Shown here: positions 4,394 through 49,117 of the stretch, piece after piece
How positions within the stretch are numbered: the first letter of the stretch is position 1
Layout of the letters: each line of letters opens with the position of its first letter
Virus record (IMG/VR): IMGVR_UViG_3300025740_000004
Location: 28,375 to 92,374 of that record
Source: a virus
Taxonomy: Duplodnaviria > Caudoviricetes
DNA length: 64,000 nucleotides
Reading direction: 5' to 3' (one strand)
Program-made: the position numbers and the translations under genes
Notes under the pieces: generated by a model
What the model was told of the DNA's origin: nothing
Database searches by the model: none
What the model saw: the letters and a program-made list of their open reading frames with translations, nothing else

Positions 4394-5431
4394 ATGAATG
4401 TTGCTATATTTAACGATCTTCATTTTGGTATTAAAAGAGGTTCTGAAATTTTTCTACAATCTCAATTAAAGTTTATTAGGAATCAATTTATACCAGAATT
4501 AATTGAAAGAAAAATTGATACTATAATTATTCCAGGTGATTTTTTTGATAATAGAATTGCGTTAGATAATAAAATTTTAACACATATTTTAGATCTTTTT
4601 GATAATGAATTTAAAAACTTTAATATTCATATTCTTGTAGGAAATCATGATTCATATTTAAAAAGTTCTATTCATATTAATTCTTTAAGAGTATTTGAAT
4701 TTTATAAGAATGTAAAAATCTATGAAAAAAATGAATCTATAACTTTAGGAAATAGAAAAATCTTTATGTGTCCTTGGATTACTGATAATAAAGTTTTCTT
4801 AGAAGAATTAGAAACTTTAGAAAATCATGATGTTTGTTTTGGACATTTTAACTTTTCAAATTTTCTAATGCATAAAGATCAAGAATCAGATCATGGACTT
4901 TCTCCAGAACTTTTCTACAAAAAATTTAAGAAAACAATCTCAGGACACTTTCATACAAGATCTTCTAAAAAGGTTGGAGAGTCTGAAATCATATATCCAG
5001 GAAATCCATTTCATTTTACTAGAAGCGATATAGATGATGAACGAGGATATTCTATACTAAACTTAGATACCCTTGATTTAGAATTTATAGAAAATAGAGA
5101 ATCTATAAAGTTTGTAAAGTATTATTATCCACAACAATTAGAAGAAAAAGATATTCGAAATAATCATGTAGATATATATGTAAAGTTAGATCAAAATCTA
5201 AACGAACAAGAAGTAGATGCTTATTTCGAAAGGCTTGAGAAATTTGAACCAGCATTTCCTTTGAATAAGAAGACCATAAATATGTTAAATGGTGATTCTC
5301 CTGTAGAAATGTCTGCTACTTCAGGTAGAGAATTAATTGAACAATATGTATTACAGCAGTCTATTGAGAATAAATCAGATATTTTAAAACTTTTATTTGA
5401 ACTCCATGATGATTGTAAGAACGCTTTTTGA
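4394..5431 (+). CDS. 47: gp47 Mre11/SbcD-like nuclease
   Basis: DLHFG, GDFFDNR, GNHD and SGHFH metallophosphoesterase motifs. Confidence 0.95.
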   Translation: MNVAIFNDLHFGIKRGSEIFLQSQLKFIRNQFIPELIERKIDTIIIPGDFFDNRIALDNKILTHILDLFDNEFKNFNIHILVGNHDSYLKSSIHINSLRVFEFYKNVKIYEKNESITLGNRKIFMCPWITDNKVFLEELETLENHDVCFGHFNFSNFLMHKDQESDHGLSPELFYKKFKKTISGHFHTRSSKKVGESEIIYPGNPFHFTRSDIDDERGYSILNLDTLDLEFIENRESIKFVKYYYPQQLEEKDIRNNHVDIYVKLDQNLNEQEVDAYFERLEKFEPAFPLNKKTINMLNGDSPVEMSATSGRELIEQYVLQQSIENKSDILKLLFELHDDCKNAF

Positions 5432-5440
5432 GGTGAATTT

Positions 5441-5626
5441 ATGGGAAAGTATCCAGTAAAGACAGAAGAAGATATAGAGAAAAAAGAATTTGCTAATATG
5501 GTTGCTTCTAAATTGATTGAAAATATTCAAAAAATTGCTAAAGAAAAAAACTTAAATGAAGCAAAAGATTTTAGGAAAATAATGAGAATACTTAAAAAAG
5601 AGGAAAAGTTGAATGAACCTAAATGA
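5441..5626 (+). CDS. Hypothetical protein
   Basis: GAGGT RBS; tightly packed in the operon. Confidence 0.6.
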   Translation: MGKYPVKTEEDIEKKEFANMVASKLIENIQKIAKEKNLNEAKDFRKIMRILKKEEKLNEPK

Positions 5627-6815
5627 TTATAAAAAATCTATAGATGAAATTAAAGATCAAAAAGTTGAAGTAGTAAGATCACAAAATACTTCTAATTATG
5701 TTTCTGTAAAAAAGAATATTTTATTGTCTTATGTATCTGATGCAACTGGTTGTGGACATATTAGAAATATTTTTCCTATGACATATCTTAATGCTATTTT
5801 TGGAAAAGAACAACAAGTTATGCCAATTATTTCACCAATCTTTATTTGGCAAGAAGATATCCTAGCAAGAACTAAATCAATTCTATTCCAAAGACAAATG
5901 GCTCCAGAACATTATAATCTAATCCTAAGATATAAAGAACTCCAACCAAAATATGGATTCAAAATGGTTTATGATATAGATGATTTTATTTGGGGACATA
6001 ATGAGAAACAAGGTGGAGATAAAGAAGATGGCGTTCCTTCTTATAACTTTGGATGGCATGGAATTACAGAACCAGTTAAAAAGTATTCTGTAGAAATTAT
6101 GAAACTTATGGACAAGATTACTGTAACAAGCGAATATCTTAGATTTTATATTAATAAAGTTCTTGATGTAAATGTTCCAGTAGAAATTGTTCCAAATGCT
6201 ATTCCTATGTACTTTTGGGGAAATACTAAAAGAAAACAAATTAAGAAACCTATCACAAAACCAAGAATAGTTTATACAGGTTCACCAACACATTACTCAA
6301 ACCAAGAAAGACTTTTAGGAGATTTTGAAAATGCATTTAAAGAATTTATTATTAAAAACGTACTTGAAAATAAAATTGAATTTGTTGTTATGGGGGATTG
6401 TCCTTGGTTTTTCGAAGGAATCAAAGACAAAATTCAAGTAATAGGTTGGTTAAATTCTTATCAATATCATCTTGGTGTAAAAGCTATTAATGCAGATTTT
6501 GCTATCGGACCTCTTGTAAGAAACAATTTCAATTACTCTAAATCTTATATCAAATATCAAGAAATGTGTGCAATTGGCGTTCCATTTATAGGATCAGTAT
6601 TTACAAATGGAAAACCTTCTCCTTATGATATTTGTGAATTAAAAGTTACTGATAATTGTAAAGTAGAAGACATAGAAAAAATAGTATTCAATCTTTCTAA
6701 TAATATAGATGAATATAATAATGTCATGAAGAAACAATATGACTGGATGGATCGTTCTGGAGGATATCTAGAATCTCCAAAATATGTTCAAATGCTTTTA
6801 GATAATTACTTCTAA
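5613..6815 (+). CDS. GT-B fold glycosyltransferase
   Basis: GCGHIR..P, FQRQ, YDIDD, VPNAIP, ADFAIGPL..NNFNYSKSYIKYQE. Confidence 0.75.
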   Translation: MNLNDYKKSIDEIKDQKVEVVRSQNTSNYVSVKKNILLSYVSDATGCGHIRNIFPMTYLNAIFGKEQQVMPIISPIFIWQEDILARTKSILFQRQMAPEHYNLILRYKELQPKYGFKMVYDIDDFIWGHNEKQGGDKEDGVPSYNFGWHGITEPVKKYSVEIMKLMDKITVTSEYLRFYINKVLDVNVPVEIVPNAIPMYFWGNTKRKQIKKPITKPRIVYTGSPTHYSNQERLLGDFENAFKEFIIKNVLENKIEFVVMGDCPWFFEGIKDKIQVIGWLNSYQYHLGVKAINADFAIGPLVRNNFNYSKSYIKYQEMCAIGVPFIGSVFTNGKPSPYDICELKVTDNCKVEDIEKIVFNLSNNIDEYNNVMKKQYDWMDRSGGYLESPKYVQMLLDNYF

Positions 6816-17913: not shown

Positions 17914-17961
17914 ATTTTAATTTGAGAAAGGCTTGACAAAACAAATTAAAGGTGTTATTAT
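17914..17961 (+). promoter_or_regulatory. Phage sigma70-type promoter (family copy)
   Basis: TTGACA-aaacaaATTAAAggtgt-TATTAT; primase ATG follows 6 nt later. Confidence 0.75.
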
Positions 17962-34622: not shown

Positions 34623-34670
34623 AAAATTTTAAAAAAATCCCTTGACAACCAAAATTAAATGTGCTATCTT
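34623..34670 (+). promoter_or_regulatory. Phage sigma70-type promoter (family copy)
   Basis: TTGACA-accaaaATTAAAtgtgc-TATCTT. Confidence 0.75.
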
Positions 34671-43604: not shown

Positions 43605-46600
43605 ATGATAAAATTGAAGGAGAATGAAAGAATGGTTAAATATGATGATGTGAAGGATTTGACTACAGAAGAATATTTTAATGGTAATAATTTTAGTATA
43701 GATATTTTTAATAAGAAATATTCTTTGAACGGTGAAACATATGTTCAAACATTAAAGAGAGTTTGTGATTATATCGCATCGGCTGAAGATACTGAAGAAA
43801 AAAGAAAATACTGGTCTGATAGATGGTTTGATGAAATATTTAATGATTGGTGGCACCCTGCTGGAAGTATTATGCAAGGAGCAAATTCAGGTAAAAAAAT
43901 TTCAATGGCTAACTGTACTACAATTTCTTTGGGAGTAAATGATGAAGATTCTGAATGGGATAATTTAGAATCTATTTATAAAAATACAGCTTATACTGTT
44001 GCTAAGACCGCAGCATACAGACAAGGTCTCGGTTTGGACTTTTCTAGAATCCGTCCACAAGGTTTGAATGTTTTGAATAGCAGTAAAGAATCTCAAGGTG
44101 TTATTCATTGGATGAAATTTATTGATTCTATTGGAAATTTTATTGGTCAATCTGGTAGAACTCCTGCTATGCTTATGTCATTAAATATTTCTCATCCAGA
44201 TATTGAAAATTTTATTACTGTCAAATCAGATTATACAAAAATTCAAAATGCTAATATTTCAGTACAAATTACAAATGATTTTATGGAAGCCGTTAAGACA
44301 AATTCTGATTGGGAGTTGATTTTTGAAATTCCTGAAGTAAAAGTAGGCGATAAAGTTTATGTGGATGTACATTCTATTGATATGGATTGTTTAAAAGATG
44401 AATCTGGAAAGTATTATAAAATTGCTACAAAAAATCGTCCTTATGAAAAGATTGTAAAGAAAGTAAACGCAAAAGAATTGTTAGAACTTCTCGCAAAAAA
44501 TATGTTACAAAATGCAGAACCAGGAGTTCAATTTATAGATATGGCGAAGTATTGGAGTAATTCAGATTATCTTTATGAAGAAAATGTAGAATACGATCCA
44601 AGAATTATTTCCACAAATGCTCCATTAGTAGGTGATACTATAGTAAATTCTATAGAATATGGTAAAACCACTATAAAAGATTTATATAATAATGGTAATG
44701 CTAGTTTATTTGTTTATAATATAGCATCAAAAGCACCACAAATATTAACAATTAATTCACAATTTAAGAAATTTGAAAACCAACAAGTTTGGAAAATTAT
44801 TCTTGAAAACGGAAAAATATTTAAATGTAACGGAGAACATAAGTGGTATGTAGATGGTTCTATGAAAGAAACTTATAAATTAATTGCTGGAGATTCTTTT
44901 GTATTAATTTCTGGTCTAGAGACACAATTAATTAAGATTATTTCTATAGAAAAATTAAATGAATTTGAAGATATGTATTGTGCTGTAGTTCCGACATATC
45001 ATTCATTTTTAGTAGATGATGGTTATGTAACATCAAATTGTTCAGAACAATATCTATCAAGAGAAAGCTTATGTGTTCTAGCATCAATTAATTGTGGTAA
45101 ATTTTCTACAAATAAATACGAAGAAGAACTTTCTATTATTGCGCCATCTGTAAATAGATTTTTGGATAATGTAAATGAAATGGAAGTTAGGGATAATACA
45201 TATGCGACACCTCATCAAAAAGTTGCAATTCAAGCTTTACGAAGAACTGGCGCAGGGTTAACAAATCTTTCTGGATGGTTATTTAAGAATAATGCTGCTT
45301 ATGGATCTACAGAAGGAAATGAACTTTTAGAAAAATTTAATGAAAGATATAATTATTTCCTTTATAAATCTTCTATTGAACTTGGTGAGGAAAAAGGTTC
45401 ATTTGGAATGTTTTCAGAAGAAAAATATACTAAATCTCCATTCATTCAAAATCTTATGAAAAAGGGATTAAATTTTAAAACAATGAGAAATGTTACTTGT
45501 TCATCAATCGCACCAGCAGGAACACTATCTACCATGTTTAGAGATTTCGTTATGTCATATGGTGTAGAGCCAGCATTTGGATTATATTTCTGGAAAAGAA
45601 CTAGGATATCTGGAAAGTATGAATATTACTTTTGTGTTCCTAATGTTGTTAGAGAATATTTTAAACAATCCGGATATGAAATTCCAATGACAGTGGATTG
45701 CTTAAAAGATACATGGGACGGTTCTTTAGGAGCACCTATCGCAAAGTTTATTGATGAGTCTAGAGAAAAGTTAGCAATCAGATTTAAAACTGCTACAGAA
45801 GTTCCAGTTCAAGATAAATTAGATCTTATGTCTAGGTTAATGAAAGATGTAGACTCTTCAATTTCAGTTACTTATACTCTTCCTGAAGGTTCTACTTGGA
45901 AAGATACTTATGATCTTATCGTAGGAGCTTATGAAAAGGGTGTCAAGTCTATTGCAGCATTCCCAGACAAGAAAATGTATGGAATTATTTCATTCATTCC
46001 TTTTAGAGATCTTGCTGTAAAGTTGACTAAAGAAAATGTCGCAATTTATGATGGTAATTTATCTGAAGAAGAAAAGAAAGAATTGGGTATTGTTAAAGCT
46101 GGTTCACAAAAATCATTTAGTTCAGATGCACCAAAGAGAAATAAAACTTTAGATCAAGATGTTTATGTTGTAACGTCTAAAGGAAAAAAATATATTATTT
46201 CTGTTGGTAAACAAGATGGTAAACTTTATGAGATTTTTGGTGGATTAATTCCAGATAATCTTTCTTTTAAGTTCACACACAAACATGGAAAAATGACAAA
46301 AGTTTCACAAGGTCATTATACATTAGAAATTGGTGATGATATAGTTGTTAACAATTTTGGAGAAATTTTTACTGCGGAAGAACAAATGTTATTTAGAATG
46401 ATTTCAACATCTTTACGTCATGGAATTCCAGTAAAGTTTATTGTTCAACAAATGGCAAAATCTGCTGAAGATATGTCTTCGTTAACATCAGTAGTTAGTA
46501 GAGTTTTGAAGAAATATATTCAAGATGGTGAAACTGCAAATGGAATGAAATGTCCTGTGTGTAGTAGTAAAGAACTGATATATGGTGATGGATGTGTTAG

Positions 46601-46631
46601 CTGTTCTTGCGGATGGTCACGATGTTCTTGA
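43605..46631 (+). CDS. nrdJ: Class II (AdoCbl-dependent) ribonucleotide reductase with intein
   Basis: ANC, NA|CSE, CVLASIN, SIAPAGT, C-terminal TSCPD-like/zinc-ribbon region; no nrdB nearby. Confidence 0.88.
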   Translation: MIKLKENERMVKYDDVKDLTTEEYFNGNNFSIDIFNKKYSLNGETYVQTLKRVCDYIASAEDTEEKRKYWSDRWFDEIFNDWWHPAGSIMQGANSGKKISMANCTTISLGVNDEDSEWDNLESIYKNTAYTVAKTAAYRQGLGLDFSRIRPQGLNVLNSSKESQGVIHWMKFIDSIGNFIGQSGRTPAMLMSLNISHPDIENFITVKSDYTKIQNANISVQITNDFMEAVKTNSDWELIFEIPEVKVGDKVYVDVHSIDMDCLKDESGKYYKIATKNRPYEKIVKKVNAKELLELLAKNMLQNAEPGVQFIDMAKYWSNSDYLYEENVEYDPRIISTNAPLVGDTIVNSIEYGKTTIKDLYNNGNASLFVYNIASKAPQILTINSQFKKFENQQVWKIILENGKIFKCNGEHKWYVDGSMKETYKLIAGDSFVLISGLETQLIKIISIEKLNEFEDMYCAVVPTYHSFLVDDGYVTSNCSEQYLSRESLCVLASINCGKFSTNKYEEELSIIAPSVNRFLDNVNEMEVRDNTYATPHQKVAIQALRRTGAGLTNLSGWLFKNNAAYGSTEGNELLEKFNERYNYFLYKSSIELGEEKGSFGMFSEEKYTKSPFIQNLMKKGLNFKTMRNVTCSSIAPAGTLSTMFRDFVMSYGVEPAFGLYFWKRTRISGKYEYYFCVPNVVREYFKQSGYEIPMTVDCLKDTWDGSLGAPIAKFIDESREKLAIRFKTATEVPVQDKLDLMSRLMKDVDSSISVTYTLPEGSTWKDTYDLIVGAYEKGVKSIAAFPDKKMYGIISFIPFRDLAVKLTKENVAIYDGNLSEEEKKELGIVKAGSQKSFSSDAPKRNKTLDQDVYVVTSKGKKYIISVGKQDGKLYEIFGGLIPDNLSFKFTHKHGKMTKVSQGHYTLEIGDDIVVNNFGEIFTAEEQMLFRMISTSLRHGIPVKFIVQQMAKSAEDMSSLTSVVSRVLKKYIQDGETANGMKCPVCSSKELIYGDGCVSCSCGWSRCS
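44622..45038 (+). mobile_element. Class 3 mini-intein (139 aa) starting with Pro
   Basis: PLVGDTIV..CNGEHKW..MYC..VTSN|C; W(B12)-C(F4)-T(G5) triplet. Confidence 0.85.
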
Positions 46632-46661
46632 AAATTTTCCCTTGACAAACTAAATTAAATG

Positions 46662-48067
46662 TGTAAATTCATTTATATGATGTTATATATAAACATGAGT
46701 GAATATAAATTTTTATTTTAAAGAAAATATAAATAATTATATAAATCTAAGGAAGTAAATGATCAGAAGTTCTAAACATAGTGTGAAATTCGCAAATGGT
46801 GGAAAGCAAGAACTGCTTTCCATGTTTGTAGATTGTTACAAAGATGCTTTAGAATTTTATGTTTCTTATTTGTGGGATTCTAGAATTGAACATGATGGTT
46901 ATTTGTTAGATGTTGCTCAAGGGTTTTATGTATGTCCTAAGTTCATTTCTTCGGAAGTGAAACCAAAGGTTTCACGATTGACCGCAAGAGCTTTAAAATG
47001 TGCAGCTACACAAGCAAGTGCGATTGTAAGATCAGTGTTGAATAAAAGAGAAAGAGACGAGAACCGTCTAGAGTGGAAGAAATCTAAAGGGATGAAAGAT
47101 GAAAGGTTAGAGAAGAAACTTTCAAAGGCTCCAACTAAGCCAAATTTAAAAAATATTCATTGTGATTTGAATTCTATTTTGTGCAGTTTGACCGAAGGTC
47201 AAAACACTTTTGATTTTTGGTTAGAATTGCATTCTTTGTTTTCGGATGTTCGTGGATTGAAAGTTTTTCTTCCTTTGAAGAACTTCACTAGAGCGAAGAA
47301 GTGGCAGTCTCAAGGAGAGATTCTAAATGGGATTTCAGTTTCTAAAGAGACGGTGACTTTGCGTTATGAAGTTGCAGGAGTGCCTAAGAAAGAGATTGGA
47401 GATGTCATAGCAGTTGATCAAGGCTTGTCAACTTTATTGACAACTTCAAGGAATGATGAGTTTCCTTTAGATATACATGGTCATACATTGAGTTCAATTT
47501 TAGAGAAGCTATCTAGTTGCAAGTTAGGCTCAAAGGGATTTGATCGCGCTTCCGCGCATAGAAAGAATCACATCAATTGGTTAGTTAAACAATTAAACTT
47601 AAGCAATGTCAAAGAGTTAAAATTAGAGAACATAGAGAATATTAAATATGGAGTGTGTGTTTCTAGATTGTTGAAGCATTGGAGTAATCCATTGATTCGA
47701 GATTCGTTAATTAAACTAGGTGAGGAACTAGGCGTCCTAGTGACTCTTGTAGGTAACGAATTTAATAGTCAGAGATGTAACAAATGTGGATGGGTCCAAA
47801 AATCAAACAGAAAGGGAAAAGTGTTTCATTGTAAACACTGTCATCATGAAGATGATGCAGATGCTAACGCATCTAAAAACATCTTAGATAGACATATGTT
47901 GTTTGAGTTACCTTTTGGGTTCAGGTCATTGAAGAAAAACTTAGTTGGTTTCTTTTGGAATCAGAATGGTTTGTTTTCAAAGACTGGTGAGGAGATTACA
48001 GTCCCTCAATCCATAAAAACGTAAAAATATAACTAATCAAAAGATTTACTTATATTCTACGTAACTG
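46662..48067 (+). mobile_element. Non-autonomous TnpB element (IS607/IS605-like) inserted in a phage promoter
   Basis: TG(T) at both ends; removal rebuilds TTGACA-17-TATCTT; ATATAAA repeats at the left end; no tnpA. Confidence 0.7.
46759..48024 (+). CDS. tnpB: TnpB RNA-guided endonuclease
   Basis: RuvC VDQG / LENI / DADANASKNI; zinc finger SQRCNKCG..CKHC. Confidence 0.92.
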   Translation: MIRSSKHSVKFANGGKQELLSMFVDCYKDALEFYVSYLWDSRIEHDGYLLDVAQGFYVCPKFISSEVKPKVSRLTARALKCAATQASAIVRSVLNKRERDENRLEWKKSKGMKDERLEKKLSKAPTKPNLKNIHCDLNSILCSLTEGQNTFDFWLELHSLFSDVRGLKVFLPLKNFTRAKKWQSQGEILNGISVSKETVTLRYEVAGVPKKEIGDVIAVDQGLSTLLTTSRNDEFPLDIHGHTLSSILEKLSSCKLGSKGFDRASAHRKNHINWLVKQLNLSNVKELKLENIENIKYGVCVSRLLKHWSNPLIRDSLIKLGEELGVLVTLVGNEFNSQRCNKCGWVQKSNRKGKVFHCKHCHHEDDADANASKNILDRHMLFELPFGFRSLKKNLVGFFWNQNGLFSKTGEEITVPQSIKT

Positions 48068-48075
48068 TTATCTTA

Positions 48076-48107
48076 GGCTGATGGGTTGAGCTATGTCAGT
48101 CTTTTTT
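48076..48107 (+). terminator. Intrinsic terminator
   Basis: GGCTGA/TCAGTC stem followed by TTTTTT. Confidence 0.7.
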
Positions 48108-48121
48108 ATTAGAAAGGTTTC

Positions 48122-48568
48122 ATGAAAGTTATTAATAAAAATATTTTAGAAATTTCTGATGGATTGATTTGCCATGCTTGTAATTGTCAGAACAAGTTTG
48201 GAAAAGGTTTAGCTAAAAGTATTCGAGATAAGTTTCCGCAAGTTTACCATGAGTTTTTAAAATTTTCTTCGCTACATAATTTTCCAAAAGATAGATTGGG
48301 AAAGATTCAGGAAGTTTATATTAATAAAAATTTATCTGTAGTGAATATTTTCTCACAACTTTATTATGGAAATTCTAAAGAGACTAGAATAGATTATAAT
48401 AATTATCCAGAAATGAGAAAATGTTTTATAGAGTTAAGTAAAATTAGAAACAATAGACCTATATATTTCCCATATGGTTTTGGATCTGGTTTAGCTGGTG
48501 GTGATTGGAATAAAATTTCTAGTATGATAGAAGAATATTTTCCAGATGTTATTTATTGTAAAATTTAA
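48122..48568 (+). CDS. Macro-domain (ADP-ribose processing) protein
   Basis: HACNC..GKGLA, NIFSQ, GSGLAGGDW. Confidence 0.88.
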   Translation: MKVINKNILEISDGLICHACNCQNKFGKGLAKSIRDKFPQVYHEFLKFSSLHNFPKDRLGKIQEVYINKNLSVVNIFSQLYYGNSKETRIDYNNYPEMRKCFIELSKIRNNRPIYFPYGFGSGLAGGDWNKISSMIEEYFPDVIYCKI

Positions 48569-48580
48569 AGAAAGGTTTCT

Positions 48581-49117
48581 ATGAATAGTTATGAATTTTC
48601 TAAATTTTATTCTGGAAAGGTTATTAAAATCGTTCAGAATTTGATCGATGGAAAGAAATATAAAAATTGTAAGAATAAAAATGGTTATACGTTTAATATG
48701 AAGAGTTATGGTTTTAGAACAAACTTTTGGATTGAATTTGTTTCTGGAACTCTTCGAAATGGTGATTTATTTTTATATGATGATTGTAGAGGAATTTGTA
48801 CACCAGATTTTATTAGAATTCCTATCTTTCATAATGATAAAGTTTTTGTAGAATTAGATTATTTAAGATCAGTTTTAATTCATGAGTTTACGCATTGTTA
48901 TCAGAAACAATATACAGTAAGTTTTAAAAGTTCTGAAGATGATTATTATTTGTGGTTGGCTGATGAGAATGAACAGGAAGCTATTTTAAATCAATTTGAA
49001 TTTGGATTAGAAAGTGGAAAGAGTTTTGGAGAATTACTTAAGATAAGAAATTTCAAAGAGTTGTATAAAATTTATCCTGAATTGTTTGTAAAATTTAAAG
49101 AAAGATCAAGAGAATAA
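48581..49117 (+). CDS. HExxH-motif protein
   Basis: LIHEFTHCYQ..E.EA. Confidence 0.65.
   Translation: MNSYEFSKFYSGKVIKIVQNLIDGKKYKNCKNKNGYTFNMKSYGFRTNFWIEFVSGTLRNGDLFLYDDCRGICTPDFIRIPIFHNDKVFVELDYLRSVLIHEFTHCYQKQYTVSFKSSEDDYYLWLADENEQEAILNQFEFGLESGKSFGELLKIRNFKELYKIYPELFVKFKERSRE

What the first reader, a model, noticed from the sequence alone, without database searches (positions are those of the whole stretch)
46642..48107. TnpB element sits inside a phage promoter; its predicted guide is the displaced -10 region
Seen: left flank TTGACAaactaaATTAAAtgTG|taaatt; right end ...ttctacgtaacTG|ttatcttaggctg. Joining at the shared TG(T) gives TTGACA-17-TATCTT, almost identical to the intact copy at 34642 (TTGACAaccaaaattaaatgtgcTATCTT). 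The left end has four ATATAAA repeats including a TATAAATA late box; the RuvC triad is intact; there is no tnpA. Knowledge: IS607-family elements recombine at a dinucleotide core, TAM is the sequence left of the element, and the guide is the right flank. Inference: TAM ~ATGTG and guide ~TTATCTTAGGCTGATGGGTT. The element could home like an RNA-guided endonuclease against co-infecting empty-site phages, while silencing or retiming the downstream macro-domain operon. The terminator at 48076-48107 would set the guide RNA 3' end and be bypassed only by the rebuilt promoter.
Basis: partly seen in the sequence, partly recalled or inferred. Interest (0 to 1): 0.8.

Follow-up and report, generated by a model that had tools for sequence, protein, structure and literature searches.

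The report
TnpB element splitting a phage promoter
A 1.4-kb mobile element with no transposase, carrying an RNA-guided DNA cutter (TnpB), sits between the two halves of a promoter in a T4-like sludge phage. Near-identical phages keep the unsplit promoter, which matches the sequence the element's guide RNA should read, so this is a natural test case for RNA-guided "homing" between phages.

Summary
ORF 46759-48024 is an intact TnpB: RuvC triad D220/E290/D368, zinc ribbon, a confident Cas12f/TnpB fold, and dN/dS of 0.08-0.18. Comparing 11 independent insertion sites of the same element family fixes the right end at 48068. The left end lies just after a GTGT motif at 46661-46664, so the insert is 1404 bp.

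Empty-site alleles exist. A relative (L006) and near-identical phages in three sequencing runs (L023/L024 give the sequence) carry an unbroken TTGACA-17-TATCTT promoter followed by a hairpin and T-run. The predicted guide therefore begins at the displaced -10 hexamer (48069). The empty allele matches it 16/16, but has GTAT in place of GTGT at the TAM-like position.

Evidence for a guide-RNA scaffold at 47794-48068 is indirect. Synonymous sites are unusually conserved over the 3' part of tnpB (47794-48021), the terminal stem covaries, and conservation stops abruptly at 48068.

No tnpA was found, so IS607 versus IS605 stays undecided. Only this one of 11 sites lies in a promoter, so promoter targeting is incidental. 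Cleavage, guide-RNA expression and silencing of the downstream macro-domain operon are untested. The element's right end may leave a weak replacement promoter.

The parts
46642..46647 (+). -35 hexamer TTGACA of the split phage promoter, one of about 12 copies of an early-type promoter family in the 92-kb record
   Evidence: the same hexamer and spacer are present in empty alleles L006 and L023
46661..46664 (+). GTGT: TAM-like target motif at the end of the promoter spacer. Its last three bases, TGT, recur at 48066-48068, so the junction can be slid by up to 3 nt
   Evidence: left flanks of 10 independent insertions: GTGT in 7, plus GCGT, CTGT and AAGT; GT is invariant. The empty allele has GTAT here
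46664..46669 (+). TAAATT at the element's left tip. Together with the captured -35 it forms a hybrid TTGACA-16-TAAATT promoter-like site reading into tnpB
   Evidence: 10 of 12 consensus matches; function is inferred
46665..48068 (+). The inserted element, 1404 bp: left end, tnpB, and a guide-RNA scaffold reaching the right end
   Evidence: boundaries from 11 insertion sites and from contigs that skip 46663-48067
46728..46735 (+). TATAAATA box in the left end, 31 nt upstream of the tnpB ATG; a T4-type late-promoter-like motif. The ATAAATA core is conserved in left ends across the family
   Evidence: 6 of 19 TATAAATA in the record lie 28-42 nt upstream of an ORF start, against 0.19 expected; left-end alignment
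46759..48024 (+). tnpB, 421 aa, RNA-guided nuclease of the TnpB/Cas12f superfamily with an intact catalytic triad
47794..48068 (+). Predicted omega/right-end RNA scaffold. It overlaps the 3' end of tnpB and contains an invariant hairpin at about 47985-48013. A covarying terminal stem-loop follows at about 48021-48063, and the scaffold ends in a single-stranded AACUGU
   Evidence: synonymous-codon identity rises from about 0.6 to 0.84; fold z = -3.6; consensus fold; covarying terminal stem; no Rfam family matches
48069..48084 (+). Predicted guide, which is also the former target: the displaced -10 hexamer TATCTT plus 10 nt. The true guide length (16-20 nt) is unknown
   Evidence: conservation among 11 copies stops at 48068; the empty allele L023 is identical over these 16 nt and differs at the 17th
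48075..48107 (+). Hairpin plus T-run downstream of the -10; terminator-like. Its 5' arm lies inside the predicted guide and around the expected start site of the unsplit promoter
   Evidence: The hairpin is kept at all three alleles although the L006 sequence is unrelated; the window allele is the weakest
48122..48568 (+). First gene downstream: a macro-domain-like protein (phrog_335 'phosphatase'; relatives carry PF01661)
43605..46631 (+). Upstream gene: a large ribonucleotide reductase with a TSCPD tail
34642..34670 (+). Intact paralogous promoter, TTGACA-17-TATCTT. It is not a predicted target: its motif is GTGC and only 7 nt match the guide

Best explanation
Window 46665-48068 is an intact, recently mobile, transposase-less TnpB element of the IS1341 type (tnpB only). 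It inserted immediately 3' of a GTGT motif that happens to end the spacer of a sigma-70-type early promoter of a T4-like phage. This separated the -35 from the -10 by 1404 bp.

Shown:
- The insertion, its boundaries and the existence of empty alleles.
- An intact nuclease under purifying selection.
- A conserved, structured 3' region ending exactly at the element boundary.

Inferred from what is established for IS605 and IS607 TnpB systems:
- The 3' region is transcribed as an omega/right-end RNA whose 3' tail is the flanking DNA, that is the -10 hexamer plus downstream bases (48069 onward).
- The TnpB-RNA complex would cut any co-infecting genome that carries GTGT followed by this sequence, meaning an unsplit promoter.
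- The phage's own recombination machinery (UvsX, an SbcC-like protein) would repair the break from the occupied copy and so copy the element in, which is homing.
- Transcription would come from the left end's own ATAAATA/TATAAATA box and from a hybrid promoter built on the captured -35.
- Transcripts would stop at the hairpin and T-run at 48075-48107.

The promoter location is incidental, because GTGT overlaps the promoter's TGn extended -10.
For: TnpB identity and integrity:
- PF07282 scores above its cut-off.
- The E290 and D368 alignment to AsCas12f E324 and D401 holds.
- D220, E290, D368 and four cysteines are invariant in 26 homologues down to 30% identity.
- The AlphaFold model has pLDDT 90.
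- Foldseek finds AsCas12f at 1e-15, ISFba1 TnpB at 3e-12 and ISDra2 TnpB at 2e-9.
- dN/dS is 0.08 between copies 96% identical at different sites.

Mobility:
- There are 11 distinct flanking contexts, all on phage-like contigs, with TnpB 66-98% identical.
- Further copies at other sites appear in runs X6 and X16.

Boundaries: the right end finishes in the same 8-mer, GTAACTGT, in 10 of 11 copies, and what follows is unrelated. The left flank carries the GTGT consensus.

Empty sites:
- L006.
- A contig joint from 46662 to 48068 in three runs from three studies.
- The L023/L024 sequence.

Guide RNA:
- Excess synonymous conservation at the 3' end of the gene.
- A stable fold.
- A terminal stem with compensatory changes across copies.

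Context suited to homing: UvsX-like recombinase, SbcC-like nuclease subunit and a family B polymerase lie in the same window.

Published precedent:
- IS605 and IS607 TnpBs cut the TAM-plus-flank donor joint and promote homing (bioRxiv 10.1101/2023.11.20.567912).
- Homing into co-infecting phages is listed as a theoretical category in PMC13565253.
Against: - There is no direct RNA evidence. Logan contigs of an RNA run cannot show ends or expression, and no Rfam family matches.
- There is no cleavage evidence.
- The protein scores below the NCBIfam guided_TnpB cut-off (52 against 100 bits), so it is a divergent member.
- Every empty allele seen so far has A in place of the invariant G of the motif, so these alleles may not be substrates.
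- No transposase was found, so how the element reached 11 or more different sites is unexplained.
- In one empty-allele phage (L023) the left homology is only about 45 nt, which would make repair-mediated copying inefficient there.
Confidence: 0.7

Rival explanations
1. The element is a passive passenger. It reached this site by a trans-acting TnpA from the host or from an unsampled part of the phage genome. TnpB then serves only classical restorative homing, re-inserting the element after TnpA excision. Spread between co-infecting phages plays no real part, and the occupied/empty polymorphism reflects one chance insertion that persists by hitch-hiking.
For: - Only 1 of 11 sites lies in a promoter.
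- Sharp, motif-specific junctions at many unrelated sites require a transposase-like step.
- The record is only about 37% complete, so a tnpA could be missed.
- The known empty alleles carry GTAT and may simply be the ancestral state.
Against: - No tnpA lies next to any of the 11 copies or in the 92-kb record.
- No copy was found in 185,579 prokaryote species genomes; the six pattern hits were chance. A host reservoir of autonomous elements is therefore not visible.
- Strong purifying selection on tnpB persists in transposase-less copies.
Confidence: 0.2
2. The insertion is kept because of what it does to transcription. It replaces a strong early promoter of the macro-domain operon with a weaker or differently timed one, and puts tnpB under the captured -35, so the phage benefits from retimed expression.
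For: - A hybrid TTGACA-16-TAAATT site forms at the left junction.
- The right end provides TTTACT, 18 nt, then TGt before the old -10 (read).
- The hairpin after the -10 is weaker in the occupied allele than in the empty one, -10.2 against -15.1 kcal/mol. That would allow more read-through.
- The occupied allele recurs on 15 contigs, and four 2016 activated-sludge runs hold 80-100% of the sampled words of this stretch.
Against: - There are no expression data.
- Other copies of the element sit in non-promoter contexts, so no such role is general.
- Near-identical phages without the insertion are widespread.
- The hairpin differences may be drift.
Confidence: 0.07
3. TnpB here is an RNA-guided binder or repressor (TldR-like), or an inactive relic, rather than a nuclease.
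For: Phage-encoded TldRs are known (bioRxiv 10.1101/2023.11.30.569447), and the guide would pair with a promoter -10 region.
Against: The catalytic triad and zinc ribbon are invariant. The guide changes with every insertion site, so it is flank-derived rather than a fixed regulatory target. dN/dS is 0.08-0.18.
Confidence: 0.03

Closest known systems
IS200/IS605 family, IS1341 group (tnpB-only elements); reference TnpB-omega RNA of ISDra2 (PDB 8EXA, 8H1J) and the homing role shown for Geobacillus IS605 elements
   Same: - tnpB is the only gene.
- There is no target duplication beyond a shared short motif.
- Insertion is immediately 3' of a 4-nt motif, and the right end finishes in a similar motif (CTGT).
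- The structured RNA region overlaps the 3' end of tnpB, and its guide would be the right flank.
- The catalytic triad is intact.
   Different: - Only 13-16% sequence identity over the structural alignment to ISDra2 TnpB.
- The motif is GTGT rather than TTGAT.
- Subterminal hairpins typical of Y1 transposase substrates could not be shown.
- All known copies are on phage-like contigs.
- No Y1 TnpA is seen anywhere.
IS607-family TnpB systems: CboIStron (TAM TGGG with a GG core dinucleotide; bioRxiv 10.1101/2023.11.20.567912) and ISFba1 TnpB (PDB 8IAZ; PMC11061315)
   Same: - The same dinucleotide (here GT) stands at both junctions and forms the 3' end of the TAM-like motif, as GG does in TGGG.
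- By Foldseek E-value the model ranks ISFba1 TnpB (3e-12) and Fanzor2 (3e-10) ahead of ISDra2 TnpB (2e-9 for 8H1J, 5e-6 for 8EXA); TM-scores are similar.
- In ISFba1 a single TAM substitution abolishes cleavage. That makes the GTAT empty allele interesting.
   Different: - No serine recombinase is present.
- There is no RAGATH-18-type RNA.
- The RNA region overlaps the ORF, whereas the ISFba1 reRNA is separate from the coding sequence.
- The motif is T-rich and not G-rich.
Free-standing homing endonucleases of T4-like phages (Seg and Mob; intronless homing and marker exclusion)
   Same: - An intergenic nuclease gene in the replication and nucleotide-metabolism region of a T4-like phage.
- It is present or absent among near-identical phages.
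- It sits at a boundary where upstream modules differ (NrdD/NrdG against a class II-like RNR).
- The expected outcome is the same: a cut in the empty genome, then repair from the occupied one.
   Different: - Recognition would be RNA-guided rather than protein-based.
- Self and non-self are told apart by the insertion itself.
- The element also shows transposon-like spread to unrelated sites.

Membership tests
TnpB / Cas12f superfamily (RNA-guided RuvC nucleases) | Split RuvC domain with a D-E-D catalytic triad | tested here: met
   D220, E290 and D368 are invariant in 26 homologues. E290 and D368 align to AsCas12f E324 and D401.
TnpB / Cas12f superfamily (RNA-guided RuvC nucleases) | Zinc-ribbon target-nucleic-acid-binding domain (PF07282) inserted in RuvC | tested here: met
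   PF07282 scores 48.1 bits against a cut-off of 26.3. C340, C343, C358 and C361 are invariant.
TnpB / Cas12f superfamily (RNA-guided RuvC nucleases) | Full-length bilobed fold comparable to solved TnpB and Cas12f structures | tested here: met
   The model has pLDDT 90.3. Foldseek finds AsCas12f at E 1e-15 with TM about 0.55, ISFba1 TnpB at 3e-12 and ISDra2 TnpB at 2e-9.
TnpB / Cas12f superfamily (RNA-guided RuvC nucleases) | Score above the NCBIfam guided_TnpB (NF040570) curated cut-off | tested here: not met
   52.1 bits against a cut-off of 100, although the alignment spans residues 18-378. This marks a divergent member; it is a scoring threshold and not a structural feature.
TnpB / Cas12f superfamily (RNA-guided RuvC nucleases) | Cognate structured RNA at the 3' end of the gene and right end, ending at the element boundary, with the guide taken from the flank | tested here: inconclusive
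   Computational support comes: an abrupt end of conservation at 48068, excess synonymous conservation, and a covarying terminal stem. No RNA data are available, and no Rfam family matches.
TnpB / Cas12f superfamily (RNA-guided RuvC nucleases) | TAM-dependent, RNA-guided cleavage of double-stranded DNA | not testable with these tools
   Needs a plasmid interference or in vitro assay.
IS200/IS605 (including the IS1341 tnpB-only group) | Y1 (HUH) TnpA, in the element or in trans | tested here: not met
   No PF01797 hit in the 92-kb record, and none beside any of the 11 copies. IS1341-type elements lack it by definition, and the record is about 37% complete.
IS200/IS605 (including the IS1341 tnpB-only group) | Insertion 3' of a short conserved motif with no target duplication, and a related motif at the right end | tested here: met
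   The left flank is GTGT in 7 of 10 copies with GT in all 10. The right end is CTGT in 10 of 11. The empty allele shows no duplication.
IS200/IS605 (including the IS1341 tnpB-only group) | Subterminal imperfect hairpins at both ends on the same strand | tested here: inconclusive
   AT-rich inverted repeats exist at both ends (pairs I2, I3, I18), but they cannot be told from chance. The right-end hairpin is equally explained as part of the guide RNA.
IS607 | Serine-recombinase TnpA | tested here: not met
   No PF00239 hit in the record, and none in the neighbourhoods of the other copies.
IS607 | An identical core dinucleotide at both junctions that overlaps the TAM | tested here: met
   GT is present at the left junction in 10 of 10 copies and at the right junction in 10 of 11. 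The feature is also compatible with IS605-type elements, so it does not discriminate.
IS607 | RAGATH-18-type right-end RNA (for the ISFba1 clade) | tested here: not met
   No Rfam match at E up to 10 in 46000-48700.
TldR (nuclease-dead TnpB-like repressors) | Loss of RuvC catalytic residues and a fixed guide against a host or phage promoter | tested here: not met
   The triad is intact, and the guide differs at every site.

The most novel reading that the evidence does not exclude
The locus is a natural RNA-guided gene drive caught alongside its resistance allele. Every empty allele found (three runs from three studies, plus L023/L024) keeps a perfect 16-nt match to the predicted guide. Each also has a single G-to-A change at the one TAM-like position that is invariant in all insertion sites. 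That same G is the G of the promoter's TGn extended -10, so escape from TnpB may cost promoter strength. If so, TnpB elements spread through T4-like phage populations by cutting co-infecting genomes without any transposase, and phage promoters evolve under that pressure.
Probability: 0.25. Interest if true: 0.85.

Novelty: new variant of a known kind. Interest (0 to 1): 0.62.

Why it matters
RNA-guided homing by TnpB has been shown in bacteria with engineered set-ups. Spread between co-infecting phages is so far only a listed theoretical category (PMC13565253).

This locus offers every piece needed for a direct test:
- an intact nuclease;
- a predicted guide;
- an exactly defined empty target in near-identical wild phages;
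- a natural single-base variant at the putative TAM;
- a recombination-proficient T4-like background.

It also shows a phage-restricted, transposase-less TnpB family that has recently reached at least 11 different sites. Current models do not explain that. For phage biology it is a clean example of a mobile element splitting a promoter while possibly patching it from both ends.

Tried and rejected
- Megablast of the region against GenBank phages found no match. A tblastn search found only distant TnpBs at 26% identity.
- An exact-pattern scan for the invariant hairpin found nothing in IMG/VR and one contig in JGI metagenomes (L012).
- The same scan in GTDB species genomes gave six hits. All lack the right end and are chance matches, so neither a host nor an autonomous copy was identified.
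- An Rfam scan of 46000-48700 found nothing meaningful.
- Searches for Y1 and serine TnpA in the record found nothing. The record is incomplete, so this is weak evidence.
- Deciding IS605 against IS607 from end repeats was inconclusive in such AT-rich sequence.
- RNA run X16 holds contigs of the empty allele and of element copies at other sites. Contigs cannot show transcription, ends or strand, so no expression claim is made.
- I considered a 2-3-bp target duplication (TGT). L014 has CGT on the left and TGT on the right, so a 3-bp duplication is rejected. A 2-bp GT cannot be told from a recombination core.
- I considered self-targeting of the paralogous promoters at 34642 and 17933. I rejected it because each has too many guide mismatches, and 34642 also has GTGC in place of GTGT.
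- ARAGORN found no tRNA upstream of the L011 copy. The T-arm-like repeats there are better explained as Y-RNA-like modules.
- The earlier scan notes were used only as leads.
Full report
**What the window is.** The window is part of a 92-kb IMG/VR virus record with 28% G+C, estimated about 37% complete. Its large genes are a family B DNA polymerase, a UvsX-like recombinase, an SbcC-like nuclease subunit, a DnaB-like helicase and a large ribonucleotide reductase. This is the replication and recombination module of a T4-like virulent phage. Runs holding near-identical sequence come from activated sludge, wastewater, groundwater and sediment.

All sequence features are at the stated coordinates. 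ORF 46759-48024 (421 aa) matches the Cas12f1-like TNB domain above the Pfam cut-off. It aligns over residues 18-378 to the NCBIfam guided_TnpB model, though below that model's cut-off.

In an alignment of 26 homologues down to 30% identity, the invariant columns include D220, E290, D368 and the four zinc cysteines. E290 and D368 align to catalytic E324 and D401 of AsCas12f. An AlphaFold model (pLDDT 90) matches the following over its whole length:
- AsCas12f, E 1e-15;
- ISFba1 TnpB, E 3e-12;
- mimivirus Fanzor2, E 3e-10;
- ISDra2 TnpB, E 2e-9.

dN/dS over the first 340 codons is 0.08-0.18. That includes pairs of 96%-identical copies sitting at different sites. The nuclease is intact and under selection.

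**Boundaries.** The protein has a graded series of relatives. I fetched the DNA of copies whose TnpB is 66-98% identical. Together with the window and one contig found by pattern search, they sit in 11 different, phage-like gene contexts. None has a transposase beside it.

In all of them, conservation on the right runs to the same 8-mer ending in CTGT (once CTGG) and then stops dead. In the window that last base is 48068.

On the left, conservation begins at AAA/AAG just after a flank that reads GTGT in 7 of 10 cases. The others read GCGT, CTGT and AAGT, and the final GT is invariant. These flanks come, plus three further flanks read from loose ends.

The insert is therefore 46665-48068, 1404 bp. 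TGT is present at both junctions, so the crossover point can be slid by up to 3 nt.

**Empty sites.** A relative whose macro-domain gene is 83% identical (L006) has the following between the reductase gene and that gene: TTGACA, 17 nt, TATACT, and then a strong hairpin with a T-run.

Laying contigs of four runs on the region gave more decisive evidence. It showed a joint from 46662 to 48068 with a single letter A in between. The joint appears in a 76.8-kb groundwater contig, a sediment contig and a wastewater RNA-library contig, from three different studies, at 90-99% identity to the window.

The sequence of that allele was recovered as L023 and L024. It is colinear with both window flanks and reads -35, a 17-nt spacer, TATCTT, hairpin, T-run, and then the macro-domain gene.

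The promoter belongs to a family of about 12 copies in the record. Members share an A/T-rich upstream block, TTGACA, a conserved ATTAAA in the spacer, and a TAnnAT -10. The copy at 34642 is the closest paralogue.

**The guide.** In characterised IS605 and IS607 systems the guide RNA is the transcript of the right end, and it continues into the flank. Three lines of evidence indicate that such an RNA is encoded here.
- Among codons with the same amino acid, codon identity between copies is about 0.6 along most of the gene. It rises to 0.84-0.85 in residues 346-375 and 406-421.
- The last 220 nt fold at -56.7 kcal/mol, z = -3.6. They contain an invariant hairpin plus other stems that the alignment supports.
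- The final stem-loop before the boundary is kept in all 12 copies by different sequences. Examples are ACGUA/UACGU, ACGAAA/UUUCGU, ACAUAA/UUAUGU and ACGAAU/GUUCGU. It always leaves AACUGU unpaired next to the flank.

The loop of the invariant hairpin (ACAGU) is complementary to that tail, which may form a pseudoknot. Both are invariant, so this cannot be tested by covariation.

No Rfam family matches, and no RNA data could be used. The RNA is therefore well supported but not shown.

The empty allele matches the next 16 nt perfectly and differs at the 17th.

**TAM and the empty allele.** The flank consensus GTGT is the best estimate of the TAM. In the studied families the transposase target preference and the TnpB TAM coincide (10.1101/2023.11.20.567912).

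The empty alleles all read GTAT. The changed base is the one that is G in every insertion site. Two readings fit.
- The G-to-A is a resistance allele selected by TnpB attack. In ISFba1, single TAM substitutions abolish cutting (PMC11061315).
- GTAT is ancestral, and the junction base came from the donor core, as reported for mismatched cores in IS607 (same preprint as above).

The flanks differ by 3-6% overall, so a chance difference at one of four positions is not rare either. I cannot separate these readings.

The G is also part of a TGn extended -10 element, which is established sigma-70 knowledge. The change may therefore weaken the promoter.

**Which IS family.** No Y1 or serine transposase is present in the record or beside any copy. 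A dinucleotide shared by both junctions and forming the end of the TAM is what IS607 shows (GG within TGGG). An IS605-type TAM with a matching right-end motif looks the same. By Foldseek E-value the model ranks the IS607-type ISFba1 TnpB (3e-12) ahead of ISDra2 TnpB (2e-9), with similar TM-scores. Unlike ISFba1, however, the RNA region overlaps the ORF, and there is no RAGATH-18 match. End-repeat analysis was inconclusive. The IS607 label is unproven.

**Transcription.** TATAAATA occurs 19 times in the record. Six of these lie 28-42 nt upstream of an ORF start, against 0.19 expected, and it ranks joint first among the 56 permutations of the same letters. The tnpB copy lies 31 nt upstream of its ATG, and the ATAAATA core is conserved in left ends across the family.

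The left junction also forms TTGACA-16-TAAATT. On the right, the element ends with TTTACT, 18 nt, and a TGt directly before the old -10. A weaker promoter may therefore survive, so silencing of the macro operon should not be assumed.

The hairpin and T-run after the -10 is conserved as a structure in three alleles with different sequences. Its 5' arm overlaps the expected start site of the unsplit promoter. Transcripts arriving from upstream would contain the whole hairpin, whereas promoter-initiated ones would not.

**Is the promoter a target by design?** It is not. None of the other 10 left flanks is a promoter of this family. The spacer of this promoter type often ends in GTGT-like bases, as in the window at 17933 and in L011 at about 2293-2321. 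These promoters offer the motif, but the family inserts wherever the motif occurs.

**Verdict.** This is an intact, recently mobile, transposase-less TnpB element with a well-supported guide-RNA gene. It sits precisely inside a phage promoter, and genuine empty alleles exist in the wild. Its mechanism is most likely RNA-guided cutting of unsplit sites followed by recombinational copying, but that is inferred. The unexplained parts are how it reaches new sites without a transposase, and what the G-to-A in the empty alleles means.

Earlier notes of this scan describe similar phage TnpB cassettes. I did not test those notes, and they are not independent support.

Noticed in passing
L023:1-2916 compared with window 43605-46631: Upstream of the same promoter and macro-domain gene, the empty-allele phage carries NrdD plus a radical-SAM activase (class III reductase). 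The window has a 1008-aa class II-like reductase in that position. Homology to the window starts only about 30-45 nt before the insertion point, so a module-exchange breakpoint lies at this promoter.
   Followed up: partly
G000 whole record; window 2128, 9353, 14548, 17933, 34642, 41259, 46642, 54765, 59079 (+) and 1544 (-): A strongly conserved promoter family with about 12 copies. It has an A/T-rich upstream block (aaattaaattt), TTGACA, ATTAAA within a 17-nt spacer, and a TAnnAT -10. It probably represents the early promoters of this phage.
   Followed up: partly
window 26664, 46728, 52371 (+); 39634, 37088, 35805 (-): TATAAATA boxes lie 30-40 nt upstream of ORF starts: 6 of 19 occurrences against 0.19 expected. 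This fits T4-type late promoters. A gp55-like factor was not looked for.
   Followed up: partly
window 48075-48107 compared with L023:2955-2987: The hairpin after the -10 is weaker in the occupied allele (-10.2 kcal/mol) than in the empty allele (-15.1). Four substitutions fall in its upper stem and loop. This could increase read-through into the macro operon, or it could be drift.
   Followed up: no
L011:2380-2960 and 4426-5742: In another phage the same element family sits between two features. One is a run of four T-arm-like repeats, one of which matches Rfam YrlA (Y RNA-like) at E 2e-5, below the gathering score. The other is a Ro60/TROVE gene. This looks like a phage-borne Ro60 and Y-RNA module.
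   Followed up: partly
window 43605-46631, residues 354-435: There is a weak intein-splicing-domain match inside the reductase (E 6e-5, below the Pfam cut-off). Relatives of this gene are 968-1008 aa long.
   Followed up: no
L010:3015-3188 (-): In the 96%-identical copy at another site, a called 57-aa minus-strand ORF ends 22 nt inside the element's right end. The insertion probably replaced the 3' end of that small gene.
   Followed up: no
runs X6 and X16: The same samples that hold the empty allele at this locus also hold contigs with near-identical element copies joined to other flanks. Occupied-elsewhere and empty-here genomes therefore coexist in one community.
   Followed up: no
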